The position numbers and the translations under genes were made by a program. A DNA stretch of 64,000 nt from a virus, in the IMG/VR virus record IMGVR_UViG_3300046787_000438, positions 64,001 to 128,000 of that record. One strand, written 5' to 3'. This document shows, piece after piece, positions 15,907 to 59,844 of this stretch (positions are counted from its first letter, which is position 1; the number at the start of each line of letters is the position of its first letter). The notes beneath the pieces are model-generated. The model had not been told where the DNA came from, searched no databases, and worked only from the letters and a program-made list of their open reading frames with translations.

Positions 15907-15907
15907 A

Positions 15908-16078: not shown

Positions 16079-16084
16079 CGCGAA

Positions 16085-16249: not shown

Positions 16250-16252
16250 AAC

Positions 16253-42849: not shown

Positions 42850-43281
42850 ATGCCCACACTAGTCACGCAAGATGAAGCAGCACGGATCCTCCACGTCTCA
42901 CGGGGAATGATTCAGTACTGGGTCCGCAAGGGAGCTACGCGGTACCCTAAACCGAGAAAGCCTGGAGCACGCTATGCCCCGTCGACTCGCGAGAGACTTG
43001 GACCGACATGTAACCGCAACTACCTCCTGGACCTGGAAGAGCTGCAGCTCAAACTTTTCACGAATGCTGTAAAGAATCTGGAGCAGCAGAATCCTGAGGC
43101 CCATCTCATGACCGTTCGCGAGGCAGCCAAGCGAACTAATAGAAAACACGAGACCATTGCCACGTACGTAAAGAAATTCCAACTGAAGAAGTATTTCCTT
43201 CACGAAGGCACCTCCCACTACTTGATAGATGGCGAGGAACTGGCGGACGCAATGGAATCCAGGGGCCTAGCGCTTACTTGA
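42850..43281 (+). CDS. Double HTH (excisionase/MerR-like) protein
   Basis: VTQDEAARILHVS...W and MTVREAAKR. Confidence 0.65.
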   Translation: MPTLVTQDEAARILHVSRGMIQYWVRKGATRYPKPRKPGARYAPSTRERLGPTCNRNYLLDLEELQLKLFTNAVKNLEQQNPEAHLMTVREAAKRTNRKHETIATYVKKFQLKKYFLHEGTSHYLIDGEELADAMESRGLALT

Positions 43282-43312
43282 CTTATTAGCGCTGCAGTGG
43301 TACATTTGACCC

Positions 43313-43609
43313 ATGACTACTAAATGTGATTGCAACAAAGTGAATGCCATGGCGTTCAGGTGCTGGGACTGCAACATGTGTACTCTCTGTAACGATGAGT
43401 ACTACATGGTTGATGATGGCGTATGGGAAGTTGCCACTGAAGACTTCGGGGGCCATGGCATGTTATGCATTGGCTGCCTTGAGGCACGCCTTGGTGGAAA
43501 GCTTGTAGCTAGCGACTTCCCTGATTACCCAATCAATATGGGCGTCTTCCCGCAATCAACACGCCTACGAAATCGTTTGACAAATAGCGCAGATGCTGCT
43601 AACTTTTAA
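43313..43609 (+). CDS. Cys-rich phage protein
   Basis: C.DC, EYYMV...VW, LCIGCLE.RLG. Confidence 0.6.
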   Translation: MTTKCDCNKVNAMAFRCWDCNMCTLCNDEYYMVDDGVWEVATEDFGGHGMLCIGCLEARLGGKLVASDFPDYPINMGVFPQSTRLRNRLTNSADAANF

Positions 43610-43796
43610 TTACACATAGAAAGGGGTTCCAAATGTATGGTTTGGACTTGACAGACCCAATGGTTAAGAAGGCTTACCAATTGGGATTTAACGATGGCCT
43701 GACCTGCGCGGTAGATAACGCGAAGGAGTTCGAGTACATCGACGAAGAGCAGGCAGATGACCTGCTTACTGAACTAGTAGAGATTGAGGCCTAGTC

Positions 43797-44279
43797 ATGG
43801 GATTAGATATGTACCTTGAGGCACGCCGCTTTGTTAGCGGGTACGCGCACTCGGATGCAGCAGAGCGACAAATTTACGATACCGTTCTCGATGCAATCGG
43901 CCAGAGCGGTAAGGGTGATGAGCGGTTCGTCTATGTCAACTTCAACGTTGCGTACTGGCGCAAGACCAACCACATTCATAACTGGTTTGTGGCCAACGTT
44001 CAGGGCGGCGAGGATGACTGTAAGTCTTACTACGTCTCTCGCGAGAAGTTGCTGGAACTCGAGCAGTTGTGTAGGGACGTTGCTTCTAACGGAACCGAGG
44101 AGTACGCGCAAGAACATCTACCTACGGGTTCAGGTTTTTTCTTTGGCGGTACAGACTACGACGAGTACTACTTTGAGCAAACCGACTGGACAGCAAAGCG
44201 GCTTGCCGAGATACTGGTAAGCATCCCAGAGAAGCCGAGCCTCACAGGTATCGACTTCTACTATTCAGCAAGTTGGTAG
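43797..44279 (+). CDS. Phage protein (MGLDMYL...YWRK.N.IH.WF type)
   Basis: Recognisable phage motif, GFFFG, YY.SW end. Confidence 0.7.
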   Translation: MGLDMYLEARRFVSGYAHSDAAERQIYDTVLDAIGQSGKGDERFVYVNFNVAYWRKTNHIHNWFVANVQGGEDDCKSYYVSREKLLELEQLCRDVASNGTEEYAQEHLPTGSGFFFGGTDYDEYYFEQTDWTAKRLAEILVSIPEKPSLTGIDFYYSASW

Positions 44280-44740
44280 AAGCGGCATGCGGCGAGCGCG
44301 TTCCAAATCAAGGGCGTGCGCTCGTTGTATGCTACTATCATGCGCTCACTAGAAGTACACCTGTTCGAAACCGACTCTGACCTAGACTCTGCTATCGCTA
44401 GCGGAGCTGTACTACCAGAGCAACTCATCCGAACCGTATGCATCGATTGCCAAGGACCAGTAGGTTTTGCTGGACTGGAGTTCGAACCCTTCGTTGTAGT
44501 CATAGACGAGAATGACCAAGACTGGTTAGCATGCACCGATTGCGCAAAAGCTATCCTCAACTACGTGGACACATTCTTTCCGCCAGTCACAAAAAGTCAC
44601 TTCGCTCATCACCTCACAGATGACGAAGAATTCGACGCCTTCTAACTGTATTTATTTTTTGTCCAACACGCCGTAGTTCGTGTTGCGTAATGTTATACCC
44701 TTTGCTATAGTTGGATTACCAATAGAAAGGGGTTTCCCAA

Positions 44741-45259
44741 ATGGGAATGGATGTTTATGGCAAGAACCCAGTAAATGAAACTGGGCAATACTTCCGCCGA
44801 AATGTGTGGGGCTGGCATCCTCTATGGGGTTATGTGGAAGACACTTACCCAGAGATTGCCGAACTGGTCGAACACGCACACAGCAACGATGGCGATGGCT
44901 TGGGTGCGAGAAATGCTAAGAAGTTAGCGAAACTTTTGATGAGCGATTACGAAACTGGCAAAGCCAAGGAGTATGTCGAGGAACGCAACAAGGCTATTTC
45001 AGAGTTGCCTTTTGATGAGTGCCGTCTATGTGCTGGCACAGGTATTCGCACAGACGAGATTGCGGTAAATGCTGGTATGCCAACTCAAGAGTTGCGACCA
45101 GACATTGCGATTATCGTTGGTCGAACTCACGGAACTTGTAATGCTTGTAGTGGCCTAGGTAAGACAGAGCCTTGGGCAAGCAACTACTACCTAGAGCCAG
45201 ACGACATAAAAGAGTTTGCCGAGTTCCTAGTGAACTCTGGTGGATTTGAGATTTGCTAG
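44741..45259 (+). CDS. Early phage protein with DnaJ-type CxxCxGxG zinc motifs
   Basis: CRLCAGTG ... CNACSGLG; AGAAAGGGG RBS. Confidence 0.65.
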   Translation: MGMDVYGKNPVNETGQYFRRNVWGWHPLWGYVEDTYPEIAELVEHAHSNDGDGLGARNAKKLAKLLMSDYETGKAKEYVEERNKAISELPFDECRLCAGTGIRTDEIAVNAGMPTQELRPDIAIIVGRTHGTCNACSGLGKTEPWASNYYLEPDDIKEFAEFLVNSGGFEIC

Positions 45260-45466
45260 ACCCTGACTAAAAGTCAAACACCTGAGCCAAGTGTCTAAAC
45301 TGGCTCATCTTTTTGATTGGAAGTTGTATTTATTTTTTGTCTACCCCCGAGGGGCGACACGCCGAAAAAGATTTTCATAGATAGATTTGACATTCCGTAA
45401 AAAGTTTGCTTTACTTTACTTACTGACCAAAAGGGCAGACACGACACACGAAAGGGGCTAGTCGAA

Positions 45467-46081
45467 ATGACTACCACAGCAACAGCAACACCAAAGATTG
45501 TAGGCAACGCACTCTACCTAGAGTTGGTTGGCGACACTACTATGCCCGAGGACAAACTACGCCAAATGCTCGGGTGGCAACACAAGGGAACTAAGCAGGT
45601 TCTCATGTTCCCCGAGTATCAGGACGACATGGGCAAGACCCACAGCGCAGTCATTATGACCAGAGTTATCACAGAGAACTCCCCACGCGCTCAATGGGAC
45701 ATGAACTACATGGCTCGCAATCGTCCGAAGCCACAGTTGGCAGATAACGATTCTTACTACGCCAACTACCCAGAATACAGCAACGCCGAGTGGGACGCAC
45801 TAACAAGTCGTGAGCAGTTTGAGGCTCGTAAGCGTGCCATAGCAATCCTGCTCAAGAATGTAGTGCTTGACACTTACTACTCCGAGCCAGACGCAGAGGG
45901 CAATCGCACAACGCTCGCAGGGCAGGGTTGGGTTGTTCGTGAGGGAAAACCAATCGCAGTTGAGATTACTGACCAAGACATGACAGAACTTCACAGCGAC
46001 AGCAAAACTCCACAGGCAGTTATTCGCCGAATCAACAAAGTTCGCACGACACTTGACAAGTTCCCAGCAAAACTTGTATAG
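45467..46081 (+). CDS. Hypothetical early protein
   Basis: GAAAGGGG RBS, 204 aa. Confidence 0.7.
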   Translation: MTTTATATPKIVGNALYLELVGDTTMPEDKLRQMLGWQHKGTKQVLMFPEYQDDMGKTHSAVIMTRVITENSPRAQWDMNYMARNRPKPQLADNDSYYANYPEYSNAEWDALTSREQFEARKRAIAILLKNVVLDTYYSEPDAEGNRTTLAGQGWVVREGKPIAVEITDQDMTELHSDSKTPQAVIRRINKVRTTLDKFPAKLV

Positions 46082-46125
46082 TTTCTAATAGATACACACG
46101 ACACGACACGAAAGGGGCGAAAGCC

Positions 46126-47190
46126 ATGTATCAGCAAAAAGTAGTAGCAGAACACACGAACCCAGACCTAGCAGGATTGGACTTCGACAAACTGGCAGAG
46201 GCGGTTTCTAGCGCAGTATCAAGCAAGGCGTTTGGAATCACAACTTCGGTGATTGACGACTTGCTAACTCCAGCAGGACGAGCAACTATCAGAGTAAAGA
46301 CAGGGGCAAAGCCTACTTCACCTATCTCACTTGATTCTCTTGTAGAATCGAAAGAGGAAAAGGCAGAGGTAAGCATGGAACTTGGTGAAACACTTGAGGG
46401 CGCAGAATCATACGCTCGTCCAAATGGCGACTTGTATTATGGTCGCAAGTGGGGCGAAAATGTAGATGTCGAAGTTCTACGCAAAGCACGAGAAGCAGGT
46501 GCTTATGTCATGTTGTATGGAGTCCCTGGAACTGGTAAGACCGCTATGGTCGAAGCCGCTTTTCCAGATGAACTTTACACAATCTTGGGTTCGGGCGACA
46601 CAGAGGTTTCTGACTTGGTGGGTGGCTATGTCCAGACCCCGAGTGGCGGTTTTGAGTGGGTGGACGGAGTTTTGACTCGTTCGGCACTTGAGGGCAAAGT
46701 TCTACTGATTGACGAGATTGGTCTGATTGACCCAAAGGTTCTTTCGGTGGTCTATGGTCTAATGGACGGCAGACGAGAACTGACCATTAGCGCAAACCCA
46801 GAGCGAGGCACTATCAAAGCACAAGAGGGTTTTTATGTCGTGTCAGCGACTAACCCAAATGTCGCAGGTGTTCGCTTGTCAGAGGCACTTCTATCTCGCT
46901 TCGCCATTCAGGTCGAAATGACAACTGACTGGGCGTTGGCAAAGAAGTTGGGTGTTCCGCAGAGTGCCGTTGTCGCTTCACAGAACTTGGCAAAGAAAAT
47001 GGAGAATGGCGAAACTTCATGGTCGCCACAGTTCCGAGAGTTGCTTGCGTTCAGGGACTTGTCAAAGTTGTTCGGAACGAAGTGGGCGGTTCAGAACTTG
47101 CTCGCTTCTGCCCCAGAGATTGACAGACCAGTTGCGTCAGATGTATTCACCCGAGTATTCGGAGAGGCGATTCTGCCAGCCAAGATTTAG
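46126..47190 (+). CDS. MoxR/CbbQ/CobS-like AAA+ ATPase
   Basis: GVPGTGKT Walker A, DLVG, LLIDE Walker B, ATNP, ALLSRF. Confidence 0.9.
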   Translation: MYQQKVVAEHTNPDLAGLDFDKLAEAVSSAVSSKAFGITTSVIDDLLTPAGRATIRVKTGAKPTSPISLDSLVESKEEKAEVSMELGETLEGAESYARPNGDLYYGRKWGENVDVEVLRKAREAGAYVMLYGVPGTGKTAMVEAAFPDELYTILGSGDTEVSDLVGGYVQTPSGGFEWVDGVLTRSALEGKVLLIDEIGLIDPKVLSVVYGLMDGRRELTISANPERGTIKAQEGFYVVSATNPNVAGVRLSEALLSRFAIQVEMTTDWALAKKLGVPQSAVVASQNLAKKMENGETSWSPQFRELLAFRDLSKLFGTKWAVQNLLASAPEIDRPVASDVFTRVFGEAILPAKI

Positions 47191-47319
47191 TAGGTGGTCG
47201 TGTCCCTACTGAAACCCCGAGAGTAGCGCAAGAAAAATGTTTGCGAAAACACTTGCGCTACTCTCAAAAGGGTGTATAGTTAGACATACAACAACAAAGC
47301 CAGATGAAAGGGAAAGCAA

Positions 47320-49185
47320 ATGGCACACTACAGTTCTAAGGGAAAATCAAGACTTACCAAGCGCACTAGCGCAACTCCGTCAGAGTGGTATCGTGTTTGC
47401 TCACAGATTGGTCGTCTAGTAAACGACTGGTCATGGAGAAGCGACCTTGCCGTTTATGGTGGCGAGGATTCATGCGAGGGTCGTGCGATAGCAGGATACT
47501 ACGCCGAGATTGCCGAGATTGAGATAGATGTTCGCAAGGCGTTTGGAGAGGGCGTTAGCCCAGACTTCGTTGGCGACCTAAACGAAAAGGCAACTCGCTA
47601 CGAGTTCCCAATGGTTTCAGGAATCCTATTCCATGAGGCACTTCACGCTCGCCACACAGGCTGGGACACAGCCTACTTGTCAGAGCAGTTTGAGAACATA
47701 GAAGCACAGGCGTTCATGGCACTTGAGGAATCTCGTATCGAATCTCGTGGCGTGAAAGAGCGACCAGAGAATCGTTTGTTCCTACGCACTTCGGCGTTGG
47801 ACATGGCACTTGAGGGCGTAAACGAATCAGCACTCGCAAAACTTGGTGGCGACAAATGGATTACAGCGAATCTCGCAACTCTATCTATCGCACGAGTGGA
47901 CGCAGGTGTTCTTGAGGTTTCAGACATCAGCGAGATTTACAAAGAGGTTGTCAGCGTTCTTGGTCAAGACTTGTTTGACGAACTACGCAAAGTTTGGATT
48001 GCGTTTCAGGCACTAGGCGTTCCACAGATTGACGAGGCGATTGCGCTCGCTAAGAAGTGGGTCGAACTTTTGCGTGAGGCAGACCCAGAGGGCGAGCCAA
48101 ACAAGGACGAAGTTGGCGACCCATTCGCAGAGGAATCTGGCGAGGGTGAGGGCGAGGGCGAAAGCGAATCTGGCGAGGGCAAGGGCGAAATGTCAGAAGC
48201 CATGAAGCAGTTGGTTTCTAAACTTTCAGATTCAGCGAGCAAGACAGAAGCAAACGCAGAGCAAGCACTTGGCGACCAAGAGCGCAAAGAGAAGTGGGAC
48301 GAGGAATCAAAGGCACGCCAGAGCGAAGCGCAGAAAAACAATCAGCGCAAGCAGGAAGCCAAAAAGATTTTCGACAAGAGCCACAACGAAAGTGGTTCTG
48401 GTTCTAACTCACGAGTAAGCGAACGCCGAGTGCCAACTGGCGCAGAGCGAGCCAGCGCAGTCCAGATTGCTAAGGCGTTGGAAAAGGCGAAGTATCGTGA
48501 GCGTTCTGTCCATGTTCGCAAGCACCAAGCACCACAGGGTCGCTTGATTGCTCGCAACGCAGTCCAGAACAAGGCTATGGAATCTATGGGATTGCGTGGC
48601 GAGTTGCCAGCGTGGAAGTCAAAGACACGCAAGCACACAGACGACCCAACTCTCAAGATTGGTGTCATGGTGGACATCTCTGGTTCTATGGGTTCGGCTA
48701 TGGAATCTATGGGAACTACGGCTTGGGTTCTATCGGAAGCAGGTCGCCGAATCCAAGCGGAAACCGCTATGATTTACTACGGCTCGGGTGTCTTTTCAAC
48801 TCTACGCCGAGGTCAGCGATTGAGCGAGGTTTCTATCTACACCGCACCAGACGGAACGGAAAAGTTTGCCGAGGCGTGGGAAGCACTTGACGGCGAACTC
48901 GGATTGACTTTCACAGACGGCGTGCGTTTGTTGGTAATCGTGTCGGACGGAAACTACACACCGAAGCAGACCGAGAGTGCCAAGCAGATTCTCCAAGAGT
49001 GTAAACGGAACGGCGTGGCAGTCTTGTGGATTACCCCGAAAGATTGCTACTCGCTTGGGGCAAGGCACATCATCAACGGCTCGGGTTGGGGAATCCACTT
49101 GGATAACCTTGACACGAATGAGATTGCTTCACTTGTCGGCAAGACGGCAAGCGAAGCGTTGGGTAAGGTCGGCTCGCTCATGTGA
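47320..49185 (+). CDS. VWA domain protein with N-terminal HExxH and acidic linker (CobT-like AAA+ partner)
   Basis: HEALH, EESRIE, E/G-rich linker, MIDAS DISGSM...T...VSDG. Confidence 0.85.
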   Translation: MAHYSSKGKSRLTKRTSATPSEWYRVCSQIGRLVNDWSWRSDLAVYGGEDSCEGRAIAGYYAEIAEIEIDVRKAFGEGVSPDFVGDLNEKATRYEFPMVSGILFHEALHARHTGWDTAYLSEQFENIEAQAFMALEESRIESRGVKERPENRLFLRTSALDMALEGVNESALAKLGGDKWITANLATLSIARVDAGVLEVSDISEIYKEVVSVLGQDLFDELRKVWIAFQALGVPQIDEAIALAKKWVELLREADPEGEPNKDEVGDPFAEESGEGEGEGESESGEGKGEMSEAMKQLVSKLSDSASKTEANAEQALGDQERKEKWDEESKARQSEAQKNNQRKQEAKKIFDKSHNESGSGSNSRVSERRVPTGAERASAVQIAKALEKAKYRERSVHVRKHQAPQGRLIARNAVQNKAMESMGLRGELPAWKSKTRKHTDDPTLKIGVMVDISGSMGSAMESMGTTAWVLSEAGRRIQAETAMIYYGSGVFSTLRRGQRLSEVSIYTAPDGTEKFAEAWEALDGELGLTFTDGVRLLVIVSDGNYTPKQTESAKQILQECKRNGVAVLWITPKDCYSLGARHIINGSGWGIHLDNLDTNEIASLVGKTASEALGKVGSLM

Positions 49186-49553
49186 GTCCCTTGCCCTAAC
49201 GGAGTGCCTAACCGATTGGATTGAGCATAGTGCCAGACCCCCCTTACTGGTCGCTCTCCTAACGGACGGGACACTAGAAGCCCCTATCAACTCTTTCCCC
49301 CATTGGTTGGTAGGGGTTTCGCCATACCCAAGACGGATAGGTGCTTGCGTGGTATTAGCGTGCTAGGGATTGACGGCTCGTCAGAAGTTCTCGTGAAAAG
49401 CAGGTGACAGACTTTTCTGATTTTCGAGCCAGAGGTTGTATTTATTTTTTGTCGAAAACTTCGTATCTTGATTTGACATGACTAAAAAAGTCAGGTAAGT
49501 TTGGAACTACCAAACAGGGACGAACAAGAAGTAGTCCCAAAGGGGGTGTCAGA

Positions 49554-49892
49554 ATGGCAACAGCCACTAAGACCCAAGACCAGACCCAGACGAAAGTCTT
49601 GGTCAAAGTTTCACGCAAGTTCGTTGCTATGTTGGACGAACTCAAAGATGTTCGTGCTACTTACAATCAGGCAGACAAGCGTATTGCCGAACTGCGTAAG
49701 GACATCTTTGCCGTAGTTGGCGAACAAGCCCAGACTCTAACCCACAATGGGGTTGAGGTCGCCGTAATCGTTGCCCAGACCAAAGAGGTTGTGGACATGG
49801 ACTTGCTGAAAGCCAACTTCCCAGAGGTGTATCAGGCTTGCCTAGTGAGCAAGACCCAATACCCTATTCGTGCGGTATCTCGCTCGAAGTAG
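49554..49892 (+). CDS. Early protein, paralog of 57810..58154
   Basis: TLTHNGVE, DLLKANFPEVYQAC. Confidence 0.7.
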   Translation: MATATKTQDQTQTKVLVKVSRKFVAMLDELKDVRATYNQADKRIAELRKDIFAVVGEQAQTLTHNGVEVAVIVAQTKEVVDMDLLKANFPEVYQACLVSKTQYPIRAVSRSK

Positions 49893-50040
49893 TCGAGAGG
49901 GGCAGGGGGAAATCCTTGCCCCTTTTTTCTGAAGCGAGTATGTATTTATTTTTTGTCTGCGATTCCGACCCGCCGTCAAAAGTTGTGGCGAATGTCGCAA
50001 CGCCGTAGTAAGTTAGAACTATAAGAAAGGGGAGTTCACA

Positions 50041-50376
50041 ATGAGTGAGCCATTAGAACTACAAGACATAGCAGGACTTAGCCTGACGATTATTGGCGTG
50101 TTGATTGAGAGTTATGTGAACGAGGGATACGCCGACCCAACAATGTATAAGGCGTTGTCTGCGACTGCCGAACTAGCAGAGCAGTTTCAGGCACGAGCAA
50201 AGTATGACAACGCACCTAGCGATGTTGTCGAATCTATCGCCGACTTGCTAGTGAATCTCAAACTCACAGCGATTGAGTGCGGAGAAGTTGTAGAGCGAAT
50301 CATCAAAGAGCAGGGAATCGAAGTCAAGGGCGATTGGTCTGCCCACACTTGCGACGACCCAGAACACGACCACTAG
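50041..50376 (+). CDS. Hypothetical early protein
   Basis: AGAAAGGGGAG RBS. Confidence 0.65.
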   Translation: MSEPLELQDIAGLSLTIIGVLIESYVNEGYADPTMYKALSATAELAEQFQARAKYDNAPSDVVESIADLLVNLKLTAIECGEVVERIIKEQGIEVKGDWSAHTCDDPEHDH

Positions 50377-50385
50377 GAGAGAATC

Positions 50386-50688
50386 GTGAATCTAAACTTT
50401 AGAACTGCCCTCGGAGAAATCTTGCGAGAGAAGCGACACGAGTTAGGTCTGAACTTGCGTCAGGTTTCCAGCAAAGGTTTCGTGGCACTCGGATACTTGA
50501 GTGAAGTTGAGCGTGGACAGAAAGACGCTTCATCAGAAACTCTAGAAGCGATTGCTCAAGGCTTGGGCGTAGAAGTTTACGAACTTGTCGTAGAAGCAGG
50601 GTTGCGGATGGCAAATGCCCCAGACAGCCCAGAAAGTCTTTTCACTCGGAACGCCGATTGGTCAAAGCAATACGCCGACCTCTCATAG
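50386..50688 (+). CDS. XRE-family HTH regulator, ClgR-like
   Basis: GEILR..R...G..LR.VS....V.LGYLSEVERGQK.ASSE.L.AI. Confidence 0.85.
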   Translation: MNLNFRTALGEILREKRHELGLNLRQVSSKGFVALGYLSEVERGQKDASSETLEAIAQGLGVEVYELVVEAGLRMANAPDSPESLFTRNADWSKQYADLS

Positions 50689-50868
50689 CCCCGATAGCCA
50701 CAACTCAAAGCCCCTAAGCAGATTGCTTGGGGGTTTTGTTTTGCCCGATTATTTTGCGCCGTGCGTCTGTATTTATTTTTTGTCGCAGAGTTTTCGCCAC
50801 GAACGATTTTGGTTTGCCAAATGTCGGTAGCAGGGTATAGTATCGAACTATCAAAGAAAGGGGACAGA

Positions 50869-51950: not shown

Positions 51951-52240
51951 TGGGCGCACTTCACGCTAACGCCATTGCCGCCGATACAGCGATTCCACTA
52001 GAGAAACAACTGGAGTGGCACTTACAAGGTAATCACTTTCCGCCGATTCCAAAATCTATGGTCATTCCATGCGAGGAAGCGATTCAGGCTTTCTGGGAAG
52101 ATGACTTAGAGAGGTTGATTAGTCTTCCAGATGGAGTTGGATACAAAGGTTTGACAGTTGCCCCTGCGAGGGCGATTATTATCGAACACCACCTAGACGC
52201 CTGGTGCGTTGAGTATGACGAAGAGGATTCAGACTTCTAG
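51950..52240 (+). CDS. Phage protein (HLQGNHFPP)
   Basis: TAATG coupling. Confidence 0.6.
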   Translation: MGALHANAIAADTAIPLEKQLEWHLQGNHFPPIPKSMVIPCEEAIQAFWEDDLERLISLPDGVGYKGLTVAPARAIIIEHHLDAWCVEYDEEDSDF

Positions 52241-52262
52241 TCAATAAGAGATAGACCCCGTC

Positions 52263-52370
52263 AGCGATTAGCATTGACGCTAATCGCTTTCGGCTTGCTA
52301 GGGTTTATCCCCCTTTTCCCTAGCATGCGGGTAGCAGATTCCCCCCTTTTCTGCTACCCGCTTTTCTTTT
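52263..52370 (+). ncRNA. Triple-hairpin element with C-rich loops ending in terminator
   Basis: Three perfect stems (10, 8, 12 bp); loops ATTGAC, TTTATCCCCCTTTT, TTCCCCCCTTT. Confidence 0.65.
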
Positions 52371-52518
52371 TGCCGTTTTGTTTTTCTTTTTTTTTGTTTT
52401 ACAAAGTGTATTTATTTTTTGTCTGTCAGATCAAAGCGCCGTTCGCAAAGGTGGAAAATGTCAGAGGATTTTAGTAAAGTTGTAGTAGTTGGAAGTTCCA
52501 ACAGATAAGGGGGCAGAG

Positions 52519-52881
52519 ATGCCAAAGACAGCAGTCATTGTGACTACCAAGGCGGAGGTCAGCATTATTGACATTGCCGAAGGTTCACTAAAGAAATTAC
52601 AAAGCGCCGTAGATGGCTTGATTCAGCCAATCGACCTAGACGCAAATGTGACTATGTGGGTGAACGAAGAGGGCTTGCTACGCAGTGACCTTGAGATGAA
52701 CGACATTGCCACAAGCCTTTACGCTCAAATGTATGACATCACTAACCCACTAATGGGAGATGTTGTCTTCACTGGTGGCACAGATGGAGAGGGCGAAACG
52801 CTCGGACTAGGCGACGACTATGTGAACGCAATCTACGCCCTAGTCGATAACTACAAACAGGTTATGTCGCAGTTCGCATAA
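52519..52881 (+). CDS. DUF3846-like protein
   Basis: LQSAVDGLIQ, MWVNEEG, N..AT, GDVVF.G. Confidence 0.7.
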   Translation: MPKTAVIVTTKAEVSIIDIAEGSLKKLQSAVDGLIQPIDLDANVTMWVNEEGLLRSDLEMNDIATSLYAQMYDITNPLMGDVVFTGGTDGEGETLGLGDDYVNAIYALVDNYKQVMSQFA

Positions 52882-53057
52882 CTAACAAAGACACAGCCCC
52901 TCGCAGAAATGCGGGGGGTTTCTTTTTACCCTAAACAAAAACTTTACGCGCTCGCGGGGTGTATTTATTTTTTGTCAAGCTGCCGTATTATGCGCCGTGA
53001 AAAGTTTGCGCTTGTCAGAGGTTGGTGGTAGGTTTGGAACAAGGAAAGGGGACAGAG

Positions 53058-54111
53058 ATGTCAATGCTAAAGACTAAGAACTACAACGCAGAGTTTGCGT
53101 TCGAGCAAGTCATTCGCCTAGTAGGTGGCGCAAGCGAGTATGGCGACAGCACCAAGGCTAGTATCTGGGCAGAGTGCCACAACAACGAAACTATCGAGAT
53201 GTTGGCGGGTATGTATCTGGTTGGTTCATCAGAGCGTGCGGAACGCAACCTTGCTCGTCTAAACGATAAGTTGCGACAGGTATTCGGTATCTAATGGCTA
53301 TGACTTATCAAGAGCGTAAAGCCAAGGGCTTGCGACAGCGTGCGGAGTATCGTAATCGTCTACACCACGCAGAACACCTTGCCGTAATGTTTCGTGGGTT
53401 CGGTATTGGATTTAGTTTTATTACAGTAATGACAGCCGTTGCTGGAGTTCACGGAACTTTAGCGATTGCGTTGTTCATTATGTTTATGTTGATTGCTGGT
53501 TCAGGTTTTATTGGCGCAGAACACATTATGTTTTGGGCAGAGCAAAGCCGTTATCCAAAGAGTCGCCGTAGAACTTTACGAAGCGAGTTCGCAGATGAGT
53601 GGCGTAGATTTAGACAGTACCGAAAAGTAGAAAAGGGTTAGAAGTGAAAATGGTAACGATAGGTGACTCGGTTGCCTCGCTAGAAGTTAGAAATAACGCA
53701 GACAATACTGGACTAGAACTAGAAGTTTGGGTCACTAAGCGTGTTGGCTCGTTCTATGCTCTATTGGGCTACGGAGTATTCGGAGTGCCATTAGGCATGA
53801 GTGAAGTAGATTTCTACACAGATACCCTATACCCGATTATGAAGAGCGCACCCCTCACCACAAGTCAGCCAAGCCGAATGGCGTTGGATTTTGATGGCTC
53901 TATGAAAAGAGCAGAGGCACACATAATCAGCCATAGAAACAACCACCCATTCTCAAATAAAACTCGGTCTGTATCCCCTGAAGAGGGCTTAGCAAAAATG
54001 CTAGGCGCAGGGGCAAAATACTTGACTATTTTGGCGGAGATAAATGGAGTTACGCCACGCACTATGGAAACTATGCGTAAGAGGTCAAAAGAGTATTACG
54101 CAAAACAATAA
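53058..54111 (+). other. Cassette of three hypothetical genes (53058-53294, 53294-53641 membrane, 53644-54111)
   Basis: RBS and coupled junctions. Confidence 0.6.
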
Positions 54112-54313
54112 GAGTTAGCCCCCCACTAACAAAAGCCCCCATTATGTTCATTCATAGTGGGGGTTTTGTTTTGCTCGAAGCGTTTTGTGTTTTTTTACAC
54201 TCGCCGTGTATTTATTTTTTGTCTATATGTGGGGCAACTTTTTACGGAGCGCCGTAAGATGTTTGATTTATTTGGTTTATAGGATACGATTGAACTACAT
54301 AGAAGGGGAGCAA

Positions 54314-55000
54314 ATGCTAGTAAACAACAAAATGATGTCTTATAGGACTACACCGACTGAAAAATTGCTGGGCACAGTAAACAAGTATGCCGTGATTGGC
54401 TACCTAGAGGGAATAAAGACTTTAGTTTCAGATAGCGAAACACTAATCAAGGCGCAGGAGCAGAAGTTCACTGACGCAATAGTAAAAGCGGAGGCGCAAG
54501 TTTCTGAGTGGGAAGCCGAGTATATTCAACTACATACAAAGGCATTGCGAGCAGAACTTAAGCGTAAACTCGAAGCACCGACCAGCGCTACTCATTGGCT
54601 GAGTGCCGAGGAGATTCGTCTGCCTATCAGAGATGAAGTAATCTCTAACGAGATTGCTGAACTTTTAAAGCGCCGCCCTGATTATCGAACTTATCAGATT
54701 GCTAGGGGAGATGTCGGAGCGCCTCATGACATTCAGTATTCTAGAGCGTGGAGCAAAGGCAATAAGACTTTGGTAGGTATAAATAGACTCACCACGCGCC
54801 GTGTGGAGCAGTGGCAAGCCTCACTAGATAGTCTGATTTCTGACCTAAAGGATAGAAACAAGCAAGAAGTTTACATAGCGCAGGTTATGGAACTCAAGCG
54901 CACCACAGCAACTATTCTTGCGAACTGGGGTATAGATACCACCAAGACTGAGCGCAAGGACAGGGATAAACCAAAGCCACGAAGCAAAACTAAAAAGTAA
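54314..55000 (+). CDS. Hypothetical early protein
   Basis: GAAGGGGAG RBS. Confidence 0.6.
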   Translation: MLVNNKMMSYRTTPTEKLLGTVNKYAVIGYLEGIKTLVSDSETLIKAQEQKFTDAIVKAEAQVSEWEAEYIQLHTKALRAELKRKLEAPTSATHWLSAEEIRLPIRDEVISNEIAELLKRRPDYRTYQIARGDVGAPHDIQYSRAWSKGNKTLVGINRLTTRRVEQWQASLDSLISDLKDRNKQEVYIAQVMELKRTTATILANWGIDTTKTERKDRDKPKPRSKTKK

Positions 55001-55163
55001 CAACCAAAGACCCAAGCCCCGCTAGATTTCTGGCGGGGTTTCTTTTTATCGTGCTATTCGTGTATTTATTTTTTGTCTGAAGCCCGCCGCAACTTTTGAT
55101 GAGAGTTGCGAAGTGTCACAGACCTAGGGTAAGATTTAAGTATCAAAGAAAGGGGAAGCGATT

Positions 55164-55892
55164 ATGGCAAAGCCAAGCGTTTCAGCAGTAAAAGAATGGG
55201 ACACAGTTTACGAGAGTGACCTAGTCGAACTCGCAGTAGGGACAGCAGTATTTGCCGAGGACTACTGGCGTATGACGAATGTTGTTACTGGCAAGAAGAA
55301 GTATTTCTATGGCGAACTTGCGTGGGCAGATTCACGCCGAGAAGCAAGCGACCTAGACTTTGAGGCGTGGAACGTATGAACGAGTTGAAGCGTTGCCCAA
55401 AGTGCGCTGGACACATTCCGAACAACAAGACCCCTGGGGCATACCCTGGTGCGATTTCACGCCGAGACAACACGACAGAGATTTGTTCAGCGTGCGGAAC
55501 AATGGAAGCGCTGGAAGATTTCTTTGAGCGTGAAAAGGTTGGTGCGTAATGGCAACAACCTTAGAGCAGACAACTTGCTACAAGTGCGAAGCCGAGATTG
55601 AGGCAGAGGTTGGGCAGGTTCACCCTTTGTGTTCAGAGTGCCAAGACGATTTCGATAGTTGGTTCAATAGCCAGTTAGGAATGTTCAAGTGAGCAAGCAA
55701 GTATTTTTTGTTATTGGCGTTGATTTAGATGACAAAGAGGTTTTTATCGCAGATGACACTTATTCAGCGCGGTTCAGCGAAGACGAGCAAGTCTGGGACA
55801 CCGACATAAACGAATGGGTTGAAGATGAAGATAGGAAACACTATCTTGACGCATTAGACCTTTTGAACAATAAAAAGTTAGCAAGAGATTAG
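55164..55892 (+). other. Cassette of four small genes, including two Zn-finger mini-proteins
   Basis: 55164-55379, ~55376-55549 (CPKC..CSAC), ~55549-55692, 55689-55892. Confidence 0.55.
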
Positions 55893-56098
55893 ATTTCTGC
55901 CCCCCCCCCCTAAAAGAAAAAGCGCTCGCCGAAAGGGGGGCGTTTTTTTTTGCGTGCGGGAGATTTATTCGAGTCCCGTGTGTATTTATTTTTTGTCGAA
56001 GTTTAGGGGAGCGCCGTTGAGGAGTTTGCGTTTATCGTTGGTTGCTTGTATAGTTATAGATGTCAGGAAAACTTGACACTAAGTAGGGAGATAGAAAA

Positions 56099-56323
56099 AT
56101 GAAGTTTTACATTCGCAGAGCAGTAGTCGGAGTTATCGCAGTTCCAGTTGTCGCAGGTCTTTACACTTTTGCTTACCTATGGTTGGTAATCGCAGGGGGA
56201 GAGCCTAACGTTTCAAGTGAAGAAGTATTCAACAATGGGTTGTGGCTAGGCGCGTTGATTGCCGTAATGCTTACATTCTCACCGCAGGTTTCTAAGTTGC
56301 TAAACAGAATTGTGGGTGCGTAA
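56099..56323 (+). CDS. Small membrane protein
   Basis: Two TM segments, GGGAG RBS. Confidence 0.6.
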   Translation: MKFYIRRAVVGVIAVPVVAGLYTFAYLWLVIAGGEPNVSSEEVFNNGLWLGALIAVMLTFSPQVSKLLNRIVGA

Positions 56324-56694
56324 TGAGCAACGCCGATTGGGCATTATTGTTTGGAGTAGTGAGCCTATCAGTTGGTTCATTCCTATTAGGTTTCGTGATT
56401 AGCGGATTGCCAAAGCGTGAGGGTCGTAATGGTCGCCACGCAAATGGCAGGGGTCGCCACACGAGTTAGAGTTGTCCCCCTACAACAAAATAAGAAACCT
56501 CACGAGTGTTCATTCCTCGTGGGTTTTCTTTTTGTTTGGGTTGGCGTTCGTTGTTTTTTTCTGCCGAGTGTATTTATTTTTTGTCGCGCTCGCTGCGGGC
56601 AACAACTCGCCGTTCGTGAAAAGTTTGGGAATGTCGTAGGTAGTTAGTAAAATAGAACTATCCCAAAAGGGACAAAAGGAAAAGGGGAAACAGA

Positions 56695-57027
56695 ATGTCA
56701 AGAGTTGCTAACTATCAGATAAATGGTTTGATTCAAAAGTTTCAAGAGTTTGTGAACTACAACGGAACTATTACTGCCGAGATAGATGACAAGGGGATTT
56801 ACCGTATTACGCATTGGCGAACTACTATCCTCGAATACGATGTCTACAACCACCAGATTGTTTCGCTAACATACGGATACATTAGCCAGACAACCAGCAC
56901 ACTAGTCGGTCGTATCTTGCGCTCGCTACCGCAACCAGCCGTTGAGAACTATCTAGGCTATTTCTCACCGTCAGCCGAGAAGCGTCGCTTAGTGAAGATG
57001 TTGAACACTAGGGCTTACGCCTACTAA
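56695..57027 (+). CDS. Hypothetical early protein
   Basis: AAAGGGG RBS; YISQTTS motif. Confidence 0.65.
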   Translation: MSRVANYQINGLIQKFQEFVNYNGTITAEIDDKGIYRITHWRTTILEYDVYNHQIVSLTYGYISQTTSTLVGRILRSLPQPAVENYLGYFSPSAEKRRLVKMLNTRAYAY

Positions 57028-57236
57028 CCACCAATACAAAGAAGCACCCGTCAGAAGTGGCGGGTGTTTTTTTATTTGTGCGGGAGATTTGTTTGCCGCA
57101 GCGTGTATTTATTTTTTGTCTGAGGTGCGACACGGTTCGTGAAAAGTTTGGAATACGATTTGACTTTTGGTTCGATAGCGATAAACTTGAGTTATCAAGT
57201 AAACCGCTTGATAGAGAAAGATAAAGGGGATACAAA

Positions 57237-57488
57237 ATGTCAGCAGTTCTAACCACCCAGAACATCGTTACCGTAGTTGCTAAGGTCGTAGACATCAACA
57301 CAGGCGAAACCATTGAGCCAGTTTACGAAGCATACGGATACGAGAAGTTTCAGGAGTTCGTGGACTTTTACCGCAAGCAGAACTACATCAACAAGATTGT
57401 TTGGGTTCGTGGCTTTGGATACAACGACGAGAACGGCGCAAGCCAAGTTCTAGCAACCGAGTTCGTTGGCGTTGGAAGTTTCGAGTAA
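57237..57488 (+). CDS. Hypothetical early protein
   Basis: AAAGGGG RBS. Confidence 0.6.
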   Translation: MSAVLTTQNIVTVVAKVVDINTGETIEPVYEAYGYEKFQEFVDFYRKQNYINKIVWVRGFGYNDENGASQVLATEFVGVGSFE

Positions 57489-57809
57489 TGGAGACCCTAG
57501 AGAGCCTACTAGAGGGGGTAGCGTTTGAGATTGAGAACGAAACAGGAATACCGATAGAGGTTATCTTTGAGGGAAACCTAATCACCATCAAGCAAGGCTA
57601 ACCACAGAGAGAAGCCCCCAAGCCGAAAGGCTAGGGGGTCTTTCTTTTGCCGTAGTTGGCTTTGGCGTTTTTTGTTCCCGTGCCTGTATTTATTTTTTGT
57701 CGAAACCGACACGCCCAGCCGTAAAAAGATTTGACTTATTTTGGAATAGCGTTTAGGCTGATTACATCAGCAAAAGTTGATACACACAAAAAGAAAAAGG
57801 GGCTACAAA

Positions 57810-58154
57810 ATGACCACCACCACCACCCAGAACGCAACCACCACCAAGGCAACCAAGGTTGTTCTTGAGCAGGTAAAGCAGTTGGTCGAAGTTCGTGCCG
57901 AGATTGCTCGCCTAGAGAAGATGAAGGTCGCATTGACCTCCCAGATTGAGGGCGTGTTTGGTGTAGACAAGGAAGCCAAGACTGCCGAGTTCACTACCTT
58001 GACCCACAACGGCATTGAGTTTGCTCGCATTGACCTACGCACTCGCAAGGGTGTAGATACCGAGAAACTTGCCGTAGAGTTCCCAGAAGCCTACGAGGCT
58101 TGCTTTGACCCAGAGATGACCAAGTATTTCCAGATTGTGAGCCTCTACAAGTAA
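57810..58154 (+). CDS. Early protein, paralog of 49554..49892
   Basis: TLTHNGIE, EKLAVEFPEAYEAC. Confidence 0.7.
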   Translation: MTTTTTQNATTTKATKVVLEQVKQLVEVRAEIARLEKMKVALTSQIEGVFGVDKEAKTAEFTTLTHNGIEFARIDLRTRKGVDTEKLAVEFPEAYEACFDPEMTKYFQIVSLYK

Positions 58155-58528
58155 GCCACTAGCCAAGAAGCCCCTGCCGTTAGTTCGGTAGGGGTTTTTT
58201 GCTTGCCGAGGCACTTGATTGGTGTCAAGGGGGGCTAGACAGAAAATAAATACACAGGGCAGGGCTCTATTCACTCATAGGGCTTGCCCGTAGAGAGTTC
58301 CACCAGATAGAGCAGGGGCAGGACATACATAGACCACACAAGACCCATCAAGATAGTCGCCCACCATTCTTTAGCCCCTAGAAGCCTCATAGAAGCCACA
58401 GGCATAGCCTTAGCCACCAGATACCCACCAAGACCCCTAGAAGTCCACAGAGGCACTCATAGCCCAGAGCAGGGAGATAGCCACACAGAGGGGGGGGGTG
58501 TCTATTAGTTCACAGTCATAGACATACA

Positions 58529-58598
58529 ACACATCACACATCACAGCCCAGAGCAAGAGAGCAACACACATCACACATCACACATCACACATCACACA
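58529..58598 (+). repeat. Tandem heptamer CACACAT (about 5 copies 58565-58598, about 2 copies 58529-58545)
   Basis: Read directly from sequence. Confidence 0.9.
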
Positions 58599-58893
58599 AG
58601 CACTCAGGTAGAAGCACAGAGAAACTTTTTTATTGCTAGTGAAATGTTTGAAGCACATCAGTAATGAACGCAGACCCCTTCCGTTTTTGGAAACAAATCA
58701 ACACGCACCGAAAATATACCGCTGCCTTCTCACCCGCCAAAAGCAGTAGACGTTAAGGTACTAAATCTTCCGTTACCGTACACTCCCCCTCTTTTAATAA
58801 ACGCCCCTACCCCCCTTCTTTTTGGAGGACAAAAAATTTCCAAAAAATTTTTTAAAAAATTTACGTAAAGGTGCCTAGTGGTAGGATTAGCTC

Positions 58894-59844
58894 ATGCATG
58901 ACACTAGAAAAGACGCGTTATCCATCGCAAAAAACGTCTTAACTGATCCCATCACATATAGAGATATGACTGAGTTCATCATAAATGGGGTAAACACTGA
59001 GTTCATGCATAAAGAGGATCCGCACAATGACTACATACCAAATAATAAAGGTTTGCGTGGCCCCGATATAGCCTTAGCCGATATTGTGACCATAGGATGC
59101 TCGCAAACCTTCGGAGTCGGGGTACAAGAAGAGCAGACCTGGCCAGCTGTCTTATCCAAGATGACAAATAAGTCTTATGTCAACCTGGGAACACCAGGGA
59201 TATCTCCACAAGCTATGGTGAACTCGGCGATAGCGTACGTCCGTGATTTTGGTATGCCAAAATATGTATGCGCAAATTTTCCTAGCTTATTTAGATTCAC
59301 TCTGCCAACAAAGTCAGATCTACTCATCTACCAAGATCCAGGGAATTACGCAACAGACACCCCCCGTACCGACGTCTATAACATGAATCTGCTACCAGAC
59401 GGGGGGTTCTCTCGCGGATATGCGCAGGAGTGGCCGAGCTACTCTAAGAGACCTCACAAGATTCGAGAGGTACTCCCAAATGAGGTAGCGCTCTATCTAT
59501 CTATGATGGCAATCAATCATCTAATAGAATTCTGCAGCGCCGCTGGGATACAACTGCTATTCACAACTTGGTACCTAGAGACTCAAGAATTCTTAGATGA
59601 GAAGGCGAGGCGGTCAGCGGACCCATACCTACACGACGACAAGCTAGACATGTCCTCTTACATGCCACTACCCGAACTTGAGAGATTCCCCGCTCATGCG
59701 CGGGAGCTTCTTTGCCATTCCGATCACCCTAAAACCATCTCTTGGCATGAAGGTACCGATATAAGCCAGCATATGGGCGTTCATCAGCACCTACACTATG
59801 CAGAACTATTCGCAGCTAGAATAAACGCCCCTACTAGCTACTAA
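58894..59844 (+). CDS. SGNH-like family protein (paralog 6)
   Basis: NNKGLRG, IGCSQTFGVG, NLGTPG, D..QHMGVHQH. Confidence 0.6.
   Translation: MHDTRKDALSIAKNVLTDPITYRDMTEFIINGVNTEFMHKEDPHNDYIPNNKGLRGPDIALADIVTIGCSQTFGVGVQEEQTWPAVLSKMTNKSYVNLGTPGISPQAMVNSAIAYVRDFGMPKYVCANFPSLFRFTLPTKSDLLIYQDPGNYATDTPRTDVYNMNLLPDGGFSRGYAQEWPSYSKRPHKIREVLPNEVALYLSMMAINHLIEFCSAAGIQLLFTTWYLETQEFLDEKARRSADPYLHDDKLDMSSYMPLPELERFPAHARELLCHSDHPKTISWHEGTDISQHMGVHQHLHYAELFAARINAPTSY

What the first reader, a model, noticed from the sequence alone, without database searches (positions are those of the whole stretch)
42890..58940. 16-kb zone purged of restriction palindromes
I found a single GATC (52429) between ~42890 and ~58945, against about 60 expected. 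From ~44.7 kb, AGCT, TGCA, GTAC, GGCC, AATT and TTAA are also very scarce though common elsewhere. The GATC and two AGCT exceptions sit right after 17-mers. Known: first-transferred DNA of T5 lacks certain restriction sites. Inference: this is the first-injected DNA, exposed before anti-restriction functions act, so its small genes are prime anti-defence and host-takeover candidates. I also saw no CCGG anywhere in the window (unverified).
Basis: partly seen in the sequence, partly recalled or inferred. Interest (0 to 1): 0.8.

Follow-up and report, generated by a model that had tools for sequence, protein, structure and literature searches.

The report
Restriction-site-free early gene block in actinophage
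One sharply bounded 14-kb block of early genes in an uncultured 152-kb phage of Actinobacteria has lost nearly every short palindrome that restriction enzymes cut. Dozens of related phages show the same loss, so this is probably the DNA that must work in the host before the phage can disarm restriction.

Summary
Between window 44,647 and about 58,713, eleven of the sixteen 4-bp palindromes are nearly absent: 24 sites against about 470 expected. Six-base palindromes fall from 15.4 to 1.3 per kb. Synonymous-codon shuffles expect 319±14 sites where 15 occur, while flanking genes show no loss. CCGG is absent from the whole 152-kb genome (213 expected).

The zone occurs once in the genome. It starts exactly at the first of 14 identical 17-mers. 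Each 17-mer heads a cassette of sigma-70-like promoter, small gene(s) and terminator, all on the + strand. The zone also holds a conserved MoxR-type AAA+ ATPase and VWA protein pair.

More than 40 related uncultured phages have the same purged block at the same map position, but avoid different sets of palindromes. That fits selection by restriction-modification systems.

"First-injected" is plausible but unproven, because the contig is a circular assembly. The support is indirect. Cultured relatives carry 20-kb terminal repeats starting 1.9 kb after the VWA gene. The zone's right edge coincides with the genome's GC-skew maximum.

The T5 first-step-transfer region, the closest known analogue, shows no general purge. 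This scan has noted the same phenomenon in other phage genomes.

The parts
44647..58713 (.). Palindrome-purged zone (14,067 nt; 9.2% of the 152-kb genome)
   Evidence: Eleven of 16 tetramer palindromes have O/E of 0-0.14. 6-mer palindromes are 1.28/kb here against 15.4/kb elsewhere. The stretch is unique in the genome.
44647..57701 (+). Array of 14 exact copies of TGTATTTATTTTTTGTC, starting at 44647, 45325, 49437, 49941, 50768, 51455, 52407, 52960, 54207, 55061, 55981, 56569, 57104 and 57685
   Evidence: All copies are on the + strand and occur nowhere else in the genome. For 12 of the 14, the 3' end lies 19, 28-29 or 39 nt upstream of a TTGnnn-N16-18-TAnnnT promoter. Relatives carry lineage-specific variants.
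44741..45259 (+). First zone gene, 172 aa, acidic (pI 4.8), with a CxxC...CNGCNG zinc-ribbon-like insert. It behaves as a mobile cassette in relatives.
   Evidence: The AF2 model has pLDDT 93. Fold matches are weak only: YfbM Z 6.2, DNA mimic DMP12 Z 5.7, CdiI immunity protein Z 5.4. No Pfam or PHROG hit.
45467..46081 (+). Conserved 204-aa protein that always precedes the AAA+ gene in relatives
   Evidence: The model has pLDDT 89. No fold match with Z of 5 or more.
46126..47190 (+). MoxR-type AAA+ ATPase (AAA_5)
   Evidence: Pfam PF07728, 76 bits, E=3.6e-21. phrog_16448 E=6e-50.
47320..49185 (+). 621-aa protein with a C-terminal VWA domain (CobT/CoxE-like); partner of the ATPase
   Evidence: The PF05762 match is below the curated cut-off. 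An invariant D-I-S-G-S MIDAS-type motif sits at residues 452-456 in 7 orthologues. Homologues occur in DSL-LC01 and in Microbacterium and Gordonia phages.
49437..58154 (+). Hypervariable array of 12 cassettes, each with 17-mer, promoter, 1-4 small genes and terminator
   Evidence: There is almost no nucleotide similarity to relatives, and the order of the few shared genes is shuffled.
50386..50688 (+). HTH_3 (Xre-type) DNA-binding protein; a candidate regulator of the array
   Evidence: Pfam PF01381 E=5.5e-8.
52489..52881 (+). DUF3846 protein, acidic (pI 4.1)
   Evidence: Pfam PF12957 E=2e-17; charge.
58238..58254 (-). One-mismatch copy of the 17-mer on the opposite strand, just after the last cassette's terminator
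58255..58713 (.). Non-coding A+C-rich stretch with (CACACAT)n repeats at the right edge of the zone
   Evidence: It is the most A+C-rich 300-nt window of the whole genome. The global maximum of cumulative GC skew lies at window 58,322. Similar A+C-rich elements follow the zone in relatives G001 and G004.
42886..44646 (.). Left 'shoulder', where only some sites (GATC, TATA, TTAA, ATAT, GGCC) are already absent while the others are at normal density
   Evidence: A similar shoulder, free of GATC, ATAT and TTAA, lies before the first motif in L132, L137 and G004.

Best explanation
Proposed mechanism. The zone is the immediate-early module of a large virulent actinophage. It has 14 cassettes, each with its own host-type promoter, so host RNA polymerase can transcribe it as soon as the DNA arrives.

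This DNA must stay intact while host type II restriction enzymes are still active. Selection has therefore removed nearly all short palindromic recognition sites from it. It did so by synonymous codon choice and, where no synonym exists, by avoiding dipeptides.

The rest of the genome keeps its sites. Presumably it is exposed only after products of the zone have neutralised restriction, or it enters the cell later. Sites the phage apparently cannot neutralise, such as CCGG, are removed genome-wide.

Favoured geometry, by inference. The cassette array lies at, or forms, a long terminal repeat. The right edge of the zone (about 58.2-58.7 kb) is next to a physical end. The roughly 14 kb from that end inwards is a T5-like first-transferred segment.

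What is shown: the purge, its sharp bounds, its mode, its conservation across relatives, and its lineage-specific spectrum.

What is inferred: early timing, restriction as the selective agent, entry order, and which zone gene protects the rest of the genome.
For: 1. The depletion is specific to palindromes. The 11 lowest O/E tetramers of 256 are all palindromes. 6-mer palindromes with retained cores number 15 against 49 expected. GGNCC is 0/14.8, GCNGC 9/40 and GTNAC 15/45.

2. The depletion acts at the DNA level. Synonymous shuffles of 22 zone genes give 319±14 avoided-set sites where 15 are observed. Flanking genes show 324 against 312. The dipeptides that force a site (Met-His, Met-Gln, Trp-Pro) are 0 against 5.9 expected in zone proteins, and 68 against 73 elsewhere.

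3. The same block is purged in relatives. This holds for 7 close relatives and for most of about 50 more distant ones (VWA identity 40-74%). The avoided sets differ. AGCT, AATT, TGCA, TCGA, GCGC and CATG vary between lineages. Some lineages lose 12-14 of the 16 palindromes.

4. Whole-genome bans differ by lineage. CCGG is banned here, GATC plus CCGG in G001, and ATAT plus TTAA in DSL-LC01. This shows that restriction pressure acts on the clade.

5. Promoters look host-type. TTGnnn-N16-18-TAnnnT follows 12 of the 14 17-mers, with terminators between cassettes. Non-purged relatives carry 15-19 copies of an extended -10 motif, CCTGATATAAT, in the same place.

6. No C5, N4/N6 or Dam-type methyltransferase and no DpdA/TGT was found in the genome. 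No phage-encoded modification that would protect the site-rich remainder was detected.

7. Clues to a nearby physical end. Pumpernickel has an exact 19,963-bp terminal repeat starting 1.86 kb after its VWA gene. Four other Microbacterium phages also carry the left-end sequence twice. The GC-skew maximum and the most A+C-rich non-coding stretch of the genome sit at the right edge of the zone. The large terminase gene lies 8 kb downstream.

8. The principle is established experimentally. T5 and BF23 are restricted only when sites lie in the first-step DNA (PMC10644984). Murciavirus sensitivity to a type I system depends only on motifs in the early-injected region (PMC12455610).
Against: The physical ends are unknown. 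The 127-bp 'terminal repeat' is an assembler overlap. No relative's assembly retains a duplicated array.

The cultured relatives that have the long terminal repeat are not purged. Their repeat could not be mapped onto this genome by homology.

No recognisable anti-restriction gene (Ocr, ArdA, ArdB or Dar type) was found in the zone. The host and its restriction systems are unknown.

Early timing rests on promoter prediction only. A generic promoter scan of the region was not enriched over shuffles.

T5, the model invoked, shows no general purge in its first-step DNA. So stepwise entry alone does not predict so complete a loss.
Confidence: 0.68

Rival explanations
1. Self-protection from the phage's own nucleases. 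Early phage nucleases that destroy host DNA cut at short palindromes. Only the phage DNA present in the cell at that moment (the zone) needs to lack those sites.
For: T5 degrades host DNA during first-step transfer, and how its own DNA escapes is unknown (PMC10644984). The zone is the only protected part of the genome.
Against: Ten to fourteen different specificities would be needed, and they would have to differ between close relatives. No nuclease domain was found among zone proteins, apart from one weak RecE-like match. Genome-wide bans on CCGG or GATC are easier to explain by host enzymes.
Confidence: 0.08
2. Modification gap. Most of the genome is protected by a DNA modification. The zone is kept unmodified, for example so that host RNA polymerase can read it, and therefore must avoid sites by sequence.
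For: The genome encodes a carbamoyltransferase and a 2OG-Fe(II) oxygenase, enzyme classes that in some phages act on DNA. Elsewhere this scan found a GG/CC-free block beside a deazaguanine system (unchecked note).
Against: No DNA methyltransferase and no DpdA/TGT was detected. No known mechanism would spare a 14-kb block defined only by position. Genome-wide avoidance of CCGG argues that the bulk DNA is itself exposed to restriction.
Confidence: 0.08
3. A foreign or mobile island. The block was acquired from another element that avoids palindromes globally. The pattern then reflects ancestry, not position-specific selection.
For: The cassette part is hypervariable and shuffled between relatives. 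The first gene moves about within the array. Sub-zones differ: CATG is kept in the ATPase operon but lost in the cassettes.
Against: The block, including orthologous AAA+/VWA genes, sits at the same map position in more than 40 relatives. G+C content matches the neighbouring DNA. The edges coincide with the first promoter motif in every genome. The conserved VWA gene is itself purged differently in each lineage, so purging happens in place.
Confidence: 0.05
4. A cause unrelated to restriction, such as avoidance of hairpins or cruciforms, a mutational bias, or codon usage of highly expressed genes.
For: The zone has its own oligonucleotide biases: CTG, TCC and CCT are low, TTT and ACA are high.
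Against: Four-base palindromes are too short to form structures. CTAG, GCGC and CATG are spared while their siblings vanish. Shuffles that preserve codon usage still expect 319 sites. The avoided sets differ between close relatives.
Confidence: 0.02

Closest known systems
First-step-transfer (pre-early) DNA in the long terminal repeat of T5 / BF23 (Tequintavirus)
   Same: About 8-9% of the genome (T5 7.9%, abstract of bioRxiv 10.1101/866236; here 9.2%). Small genes of unknown function are read by host RNA polymerase from strong promoters. A non-coding repeat-rich element sits at the inner border. In T5 and BF23, restriction acts only on sites within this DNA (PMC10644984).
   Different: T5's segment shows no general palindrome loss: 630 tetramer sites against 754 expected, and 14.1 hexamer palindromes per kb against 14.25 elsewhere. 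No A1/A2/dmp homologues were seen here. The host phylum differs. A terminal position and two-step entry have not been shown here.
Early-injected region of T7-like phages (Autographiviridae), with Ocr
   Same: Sensitivity to restriction depends only on motifs in the first-entering DNA (PMC12455610). All promoters point one way, as would suit transcription-driven entry.
   Different: Those regions are 1-8 kb and lack only particular motifs. No Ocr-like protein was identified here. The genome is four times larger, and its structural genes resemble those of siphovirus actinophages.
Genome-wide restriction-site (palindrome) avoidance in phages (Rusinov et al. 2018, PMC6286503)
   Same: Under-representation of type II palindromic sites as a passive anti-restriction strategy. 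This genome also shows the genome-wide form for CCGG, GGCGCC and GCGCGC.
   Different: Here the main effect is confined to one block with base-pair-sharp edges, and it covers most palindromes at once rather than a few sites.
SPO1 host-takeover module in the 13-kb terminal redundancy; anti-defence islands in plasmid leading regions (both from my own knowledge, not checked here)
   Same: Dense arrays of small early genes, each with its own strong promoter, in the first DNA to become active in the recipient cell.
   Different: I know of no reported palindrome purge for either. No sequence homology was tested.

Membership tests
T5-type first-step-transfer region | Lies at a physical genome end, inside a long direct terminal repeat | not testable with these tools
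   The contig is a circular assembly with a 127-bp overlap. Cultured distant relatives have 20-kb terminal repeats that begin 1.9 kb after the VWA gene. Homology mapping onto this genome failed.
T5-type first-step-transfer region | DNA entry pauses at an injection stop signal until pre-early proteins are made | not testable with these tools
   Only a candidate element can be named: the A+C-rich repeat-bearing non-coding stretch at 58,255-58,713, which holds the GC-skew maximum.
T5-type first-step-transfer region | Genes transcribed by unmodified host RNA polymerase from strong promoters | tested here: inconclusive
   Twelve of 14 cassettes have TTGnnn-N16-18-TAnnnT at phased distances from the 17-mer. 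However, a generic scan was not enriched over shuffles, and there are no expression data.
T5-type first-step-transfer region | Restriction sites absent here but present in the rest of the genome | tested here: met
T5-type first-step-transfer region | Homologues of the A1, A2 or dmp pre-early proteins | tested here: not met
   PHROG and Pfam scans of 20 zone proteins gave no such families.
Restriction-site avoidance | Significant, palindrome-specific under-representation not explained by composition or codon usage | tested here: met
   Markov expectation; synonymous shuffles; flank controls.
Restriction-site avoidance | Avoided words match the restriction systems of the host | not testable with these tools
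   The host is unknown. It is an actinobacterium, judged by two WhiB genes and actinophage capsid relatives. Lineage-specific spectra are consistent with the feature.
MoxR AAA+ / VWA pair | AAA_5 ATPase domain | tested here: met
   PF07728, 76 bits against a cut-off of 22.
MoxR AAA+ / VWA pair | Adjacent VWA-domain partner with a MIDAS motif | tested here: inconclusive
   PF05762 scores 19.1 bits, below the 26.4 cut-off. An invariant DISGS motif is present in 7 orthologues.

The most novel reading that the evidence does not exclude
A clade of freshwater actinophages uses a two-step, T5-like genome entry that evolved independently. [quoted passage not shown] A protein bound to the invariant 17-mers organises the first-entering DNA and shields the sites next to it. 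The purge would then be a sequence-only marker that delimits first-entering DNA, and its anti-defence genes, in uncultured phages.
Probability: 0.15. Interest if true: 0.85.

Novelty: new variant of a known kind. Interest (0 to 1): 0.62.

Why it matters
Position-dependent escape from restriction is known from T5 and T7-like phages, where it was found by experiment and involves a few sites. Here the genome sequence alone shows it, in extreme form. Hexamer palindromes drop 12-fold, the edges are sharp to within tens of bases, and the loss reaches into protein sequence. It recurs in dozens of uncultured phages with lineage-specific spectra.

If the reading holds, three things follow:
- It gives a computable marker for the DNA that faces host defences unprotected. 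That marker points to unexplored early and anti-defence genes: 20-40 small ORFs per phage, which turn over rapidly.
- It implies that restriction pressure in freshwater Actinobacteria is both broad and intense.
- It makes the role of the widespread phage MoxR/VWA pair testable.

Tried and rejected
- Megablast of the zone and of 20 kb upstream against 50,697 phage records gave no match.
- An exact scan for the 17-mer in IMG/VR returned only single chance hits in unrelated contigs.
- Contig ends of relatives are enriched 1-8 kb upstream of the VWA gene (24 loci, against 5 downstream). They do not coincide with the zone edge, and many belong to non-purged phages, so they do not locate a terminus.
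- No relative's record holds the motif array twice, so no assembly retained a long terminal repeat.
- The 316-aa ORF just right of the zone shows no BLASTP similarity to Pumpernickel gp1 or to the DSL-LC01 317-aa protein. The two lysin-like genes match only at E=0.027. The cultured phages' repeat start therefore cannot be projected onto this genome.
- Pfam, PHROG and NCBIfam named only 4 of about 22 zone proteins.
- Two PDB sequence searches found nothing useful. The ESM Atlas gave only unnamed viral clusters for gene 1 and nothing for the 111-aa acidic protein.
- High-confidence models of genes 1 and 2 had no Foldseek match at E ≤ 0.001. VIA-align gave only Z 5.4-6.2 for gene 1 (YfbM, DNA mimic DMP12, CdiI) and below 5 for gene 2. 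These values are under the level at which a shared fold can be claimed, so the DNA-mimic idea is a lead only.
- Rfam found nothing in 42-60 kb.
- Residual sites cluster next to the repeated motif in 4 of 13 genomes only.
- An early idea that the promoters were of Bacteroidota type was dropped once the capsid relatives and WhiB genes pointed to Actinobacteria.


Full report
**Context.** The window is bases 64,001-128,000 of a 152,411-bp IMG/VR viral contig rated complete. Its "direct terminal repeat" is only 127 bp, which is an assembler overlap. The map is therefore circular and the physical ends are unknown.

The capsid, portal, terminase, tape-measure and replication genes are those of a large siphovirus-like phage. 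The nearest named capsid relatives are actinophages. These are the metagenome-assembled DSL-LC01 (66% identity) and then Microbacterium, Arthrobacter, Gordonia and Mycobacterium phages. Two WhiB genes confirm an actinobacterial host.

**The observation.** Counting all sixteen 4-bp palindromes in 2-kb bins shows a single anomalous stretch. From 44,647 to about 58,713, eleven of them almost vanish: AATT, ACGT, AGCT, ATAT, GATC, GGCC, GTAC, TGCA, TTAA, CGCG and CCGG.
- Against second-order Markov expectations of 17-59 each, the observed counts are 0-8, with P of 1e-8 to 1e-26.
- The eleven lowest-ratio tetramers of all 256 are all palindromes.
- CTAG, GCGC and CATG stay near expectation. TCGA and TATA are halved.
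- Trinucleotide frequencies are unremarkable.

The loss extends to longer and interrupted sites.
- Hexamer palindromes built on the retained cores number 15 against 49 expected.
- GGNCC is 0/14.8, CCNGG 4/18, GCNGC 9/40 and GTNAC 15/45.
- All hexamer palindromes together fall from 15.4 to 1.28 per kb.

The edges are sharp. On the left, ordinary density runs up to 44,629-44,632, and the zone begins with the first 17-mer at 44,647. On the right, ten different palindromes return between 58,714 and 58,945. GATC, TATA, TTAA and ATAT disappear 0.8-2.7 kb before the left edge, forming a shoulder.

CCGG is absent from the entire genome (213 expected). GGCGCC and GCGCGC are absent too.

**Mode of the loss.** I shuffled synonymous codons within each of 22 zone genes. 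Those shuffles predict 319±14 sites of the avoided set, and 15 are present. The same test on eleven flanking genes gives 324 observed against 312 expected. The loss is therefore selection on DNA words, not on amino-acid or codon composition.

It also reaches the proteins. Met-His, Met-Gln and Trp-Pro cannot be encoded without TGCA or GGCC. They occur 0 times against 5.9 expected in zone proteins, and 68 against 73 elsewhere.

**Anatomy.** All credible genes in the zone are on the + strand. Fourteen exact copies of TGTATTTATTTTTTGTC occur, all on the + strand and nowhere else in the genome.
- Each 17-mer follows the terminator of the preceding unit.
- Twelve of the 14 are followed, at 19, 28-29 or 39 nt, by TTGnnn-N16-18-TAnnnT and then an AAAGGGG-type ribosome-binding site. 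The roughly 10-nt steps keep the 17-mer on one face of the helix relative to the promoter.
- The first 4.8 kb is an operon-like group: a 172-aa acidic protein, a 204-aa protein, a MoxR-type AAA+ ATPase (PF07728, 76 bits) and a 621-aa VWA-type protein with an invariant DISGS motif.
- The remaining 9 kb holds twelve cassettes of small ORFs. Only an Xre-type HTH protein and a DUF3846 protein have names. Several ORFs are strongly acidic.
- After the last cassette come a terminator, a reversed one-mismatch 17-mer, and a 460-nt non-coding A+C-rich stretch with CACACAT repeats. That stretch is the most A+C-rich window of the genome and contains the global maximum of cumulative GC skew.
- The large terminase gene lies 8 kb further on.

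**Relatives.** Using the VWA protein as a probe, 11 and then 80 IMG/VR loci were recovered.
- In seven close relatives (VWA identity 66-75%), a block of 13-16 kb starts at the first copy of a lineage-specific repeated motif. The motifs are TATTTATTTTTTG, TAGTTATTTTTTC and GTATCCACTTTTT, with 14-19 copies almost all on one strand. Each block is purged.
- Whole-record profiles of a 154-kb relative and two 65-kb fragments show one such block each, ending 3-8 kb before the terminase gene.
- The avoided sets differ. ACGT, ATAT, GGCC, GTAC, TTAA and mostly GATC are always lost. AATT, AGCT, TGCA, TCGA, GCGC, CGCG and CATG are lost in some lineages and kept in others. CTAG is never lost.
- Among more distant relatives (40-56%), most are purged. 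Some are purged more strongly than this phage, with 12-14 of 16 tetramers gone and 0-0.9 hexamer palindromes per kb.
- A minority are not purged, including two loci with 60% G+C, as well as DSL-LC01 and the cultured Microbacterium phages. Several non-purged IMG/VR loci still carry 15-19 copies of CCTGATATAAT, an extended -10 promoter, in the same place.
- Whole-genome bans also differ. G001 lacks GATC and CCGG. DSL-LC01 lacks ATAT and TTAA.
- The AAA+/VWA operon is conserved at about 72% nucleotide identity. The cassette part shares almost nothing, and what is shared is reordered. Gene 1 sits among the cassettes in some relatives.

The purge is thus maintained in place on both stable and rapidly exchanged DNA.

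**Interpretation.** Four features point to type II restriction-modification systems as the selective agent: specificity for palindromes, inclusion of interrupted sites, lineage-specific spectra, and coexisting genome-wide bans.

Only one block is purged, while the remaining 138 kb carries about 8,000 tetramer palindromes. No methyltransferase or deazaguanine transglycosylase is detectable. This implies that the rest of the genome is protected in time or by a product. The simplest source of that product is the block itself, which looks like a host-polymerase-read immediate-early module.

The logic has been shown experimentally for T5 and BF23 (PMC10644984) and for Murciavirus (PMC12455610). The authors of the latter note that surveys of site avoidance have ignored position.

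**Is it the first DNA to enter?** This cannot be settled here. Three clues favour a nearby end.
- Pumpernickel, a cultured distant relative, has an exact 19,963-bp terminal repeat. It starts 1.86 kb downstream of its VWA gene and consists of small + strand genes. Four related Microbacterium phages also carry their left-end sequence twice.
- The zone's right edge carries the compositional landmarks described above.
- The block lies just upstream of the packaging genes.

One model fits all of this. The cassette array is, or abuts, a long terminal repeat that collapsed in assembly. The right end, packaged last, enters first. About 14 kb enters before a pause near 44.6 kb, and the shoulder on that side would reflect occasional overshoot.

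Against this, the cultured relatives are not purged, and their repeat could not be aligned to this genome. Contig ends of relatives do not mark the zone edges.

**Comparison with T5.** T5's annotated first-step DNA shows no general palindrome loss. The present case therefore shares the logic but is far more extreme in degree. It also lacks A1/A2/dmp homologues.

**Gene functions.** Attempts to name a protective gene failed. Models of genes 1 and 2 are confident (pLDDT 93 and 89) but have no reliable structural neighbours. Gene 1's best matches (YfbM, DNA mimic DMP12, a CdiI immunity protein; Z 5.4-6.2) are below a trustworthy level.

**A further oddity.** Five of the 24 residual sites lie within a few bases of a 17-mer's 3' end (P=4e-5). 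These include the single GATC and both AGCT sites. A similar clustering is seen in 3 of 12 relatives examined. Occlusion by a protein bound to the 17-mer is one possible reason, but it is untested.

**Earlier notes.** First-stage notes and follow-ups of this scan describe the same kind of block in other freshwater phage genomes. My survey of relatives shows independently that it is a family trait.

Noticed in passing
whole genome (G000), incl. window 1-64000: CCGG is absent from all 152,411 bases (213 expected). GGCGCC (0 against 13.7 expected) and GCGCGC (0 against 9.9) are absent too. The 154-kb relative G001 lacks GATC entirely and has a single CCGG. DSL-LC01 lacks ATAT and TTAA entirely.
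   Followed up: partly
window 51473, 52429, 52978, 54225, 56585: Five of the 24 residual 'forbidden' palindromes sit within -1..+5 nt of a 17-mer's 3' end (0.4 expected). The same clustering is seen in L129, L135 and L178, but not in nine other relatives. Shielding by a 17-mer-binding protein is a possible cause.
   Followed up: partly
window 44647-57701: The distance from the 17-mer to the -35 hexamer falls into classes of 19, 28-29 and 39 nt. This helical phasing resembles that of class I activator sites. Relatives carry three or more co-varying motif versions of the form TAnnnAyTTTTT.
   Followed up: partly
window 42886-44646: A 'shoulder' lies left of the sharp zone edge. GATC (last at 42,885), TATA (41,933), TTAA (43,688) and ATAT (43,807) are already gone while other palindromes are at normal density. 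A similar shoulder occurs in L132, L137 and G004.
   Followed up: partly
window 58238-58620: A reversed one-mismatch 17-mer follows the last cassette's terminator. Next comes a T-poor stretch with (CACACAT)n repeats that holds the genome's cumulative GC-skew maximum (58,322). It is a candidate terminus, pause signal or antisense unit.
   Followed up: partly
window 15460-16328: A cluster of seven tRNA genes: Ser-TGA, Met-CAT, Ile-TAT, Leu-TAA, Arg-TCT, Asp-GTC and Thr-TGT.
   Followed up: no
L191, L193, L196, L197, L213 (IMG/VR relatives): These non-purged relatives carry 15-19 identical copies of CCTGATATAAT, an extended -10 promoter, across the homologous small-gene array. This shows that a multi-promoter early array is ancestral to the family.
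   Followed up: partly
G007 (record of L178), 49.9-78.6 kb: One relative has a much larger array: 41 copies of GTATTCGTTTTT over 29 kb, ten of them on the opposite strand.
   Followed up: no
L140/L141 (Microbacterium phage Pumpernickel): An exact 19,963-bp direct terminal repeat carries 52 small genes, including an endolysin and an Lsr2-like protein. It starts 1.86 kb after the VWA gene.
   Followed up: yes
window 3389-4825 and 40656-41327: A NodU/CmcH-type carbamoyltransferase and a 2OG-Fe(II) oxygenase are present. Whether their substrates are DNA, virion fibres or metabolites is unknown.
   Followed up: no
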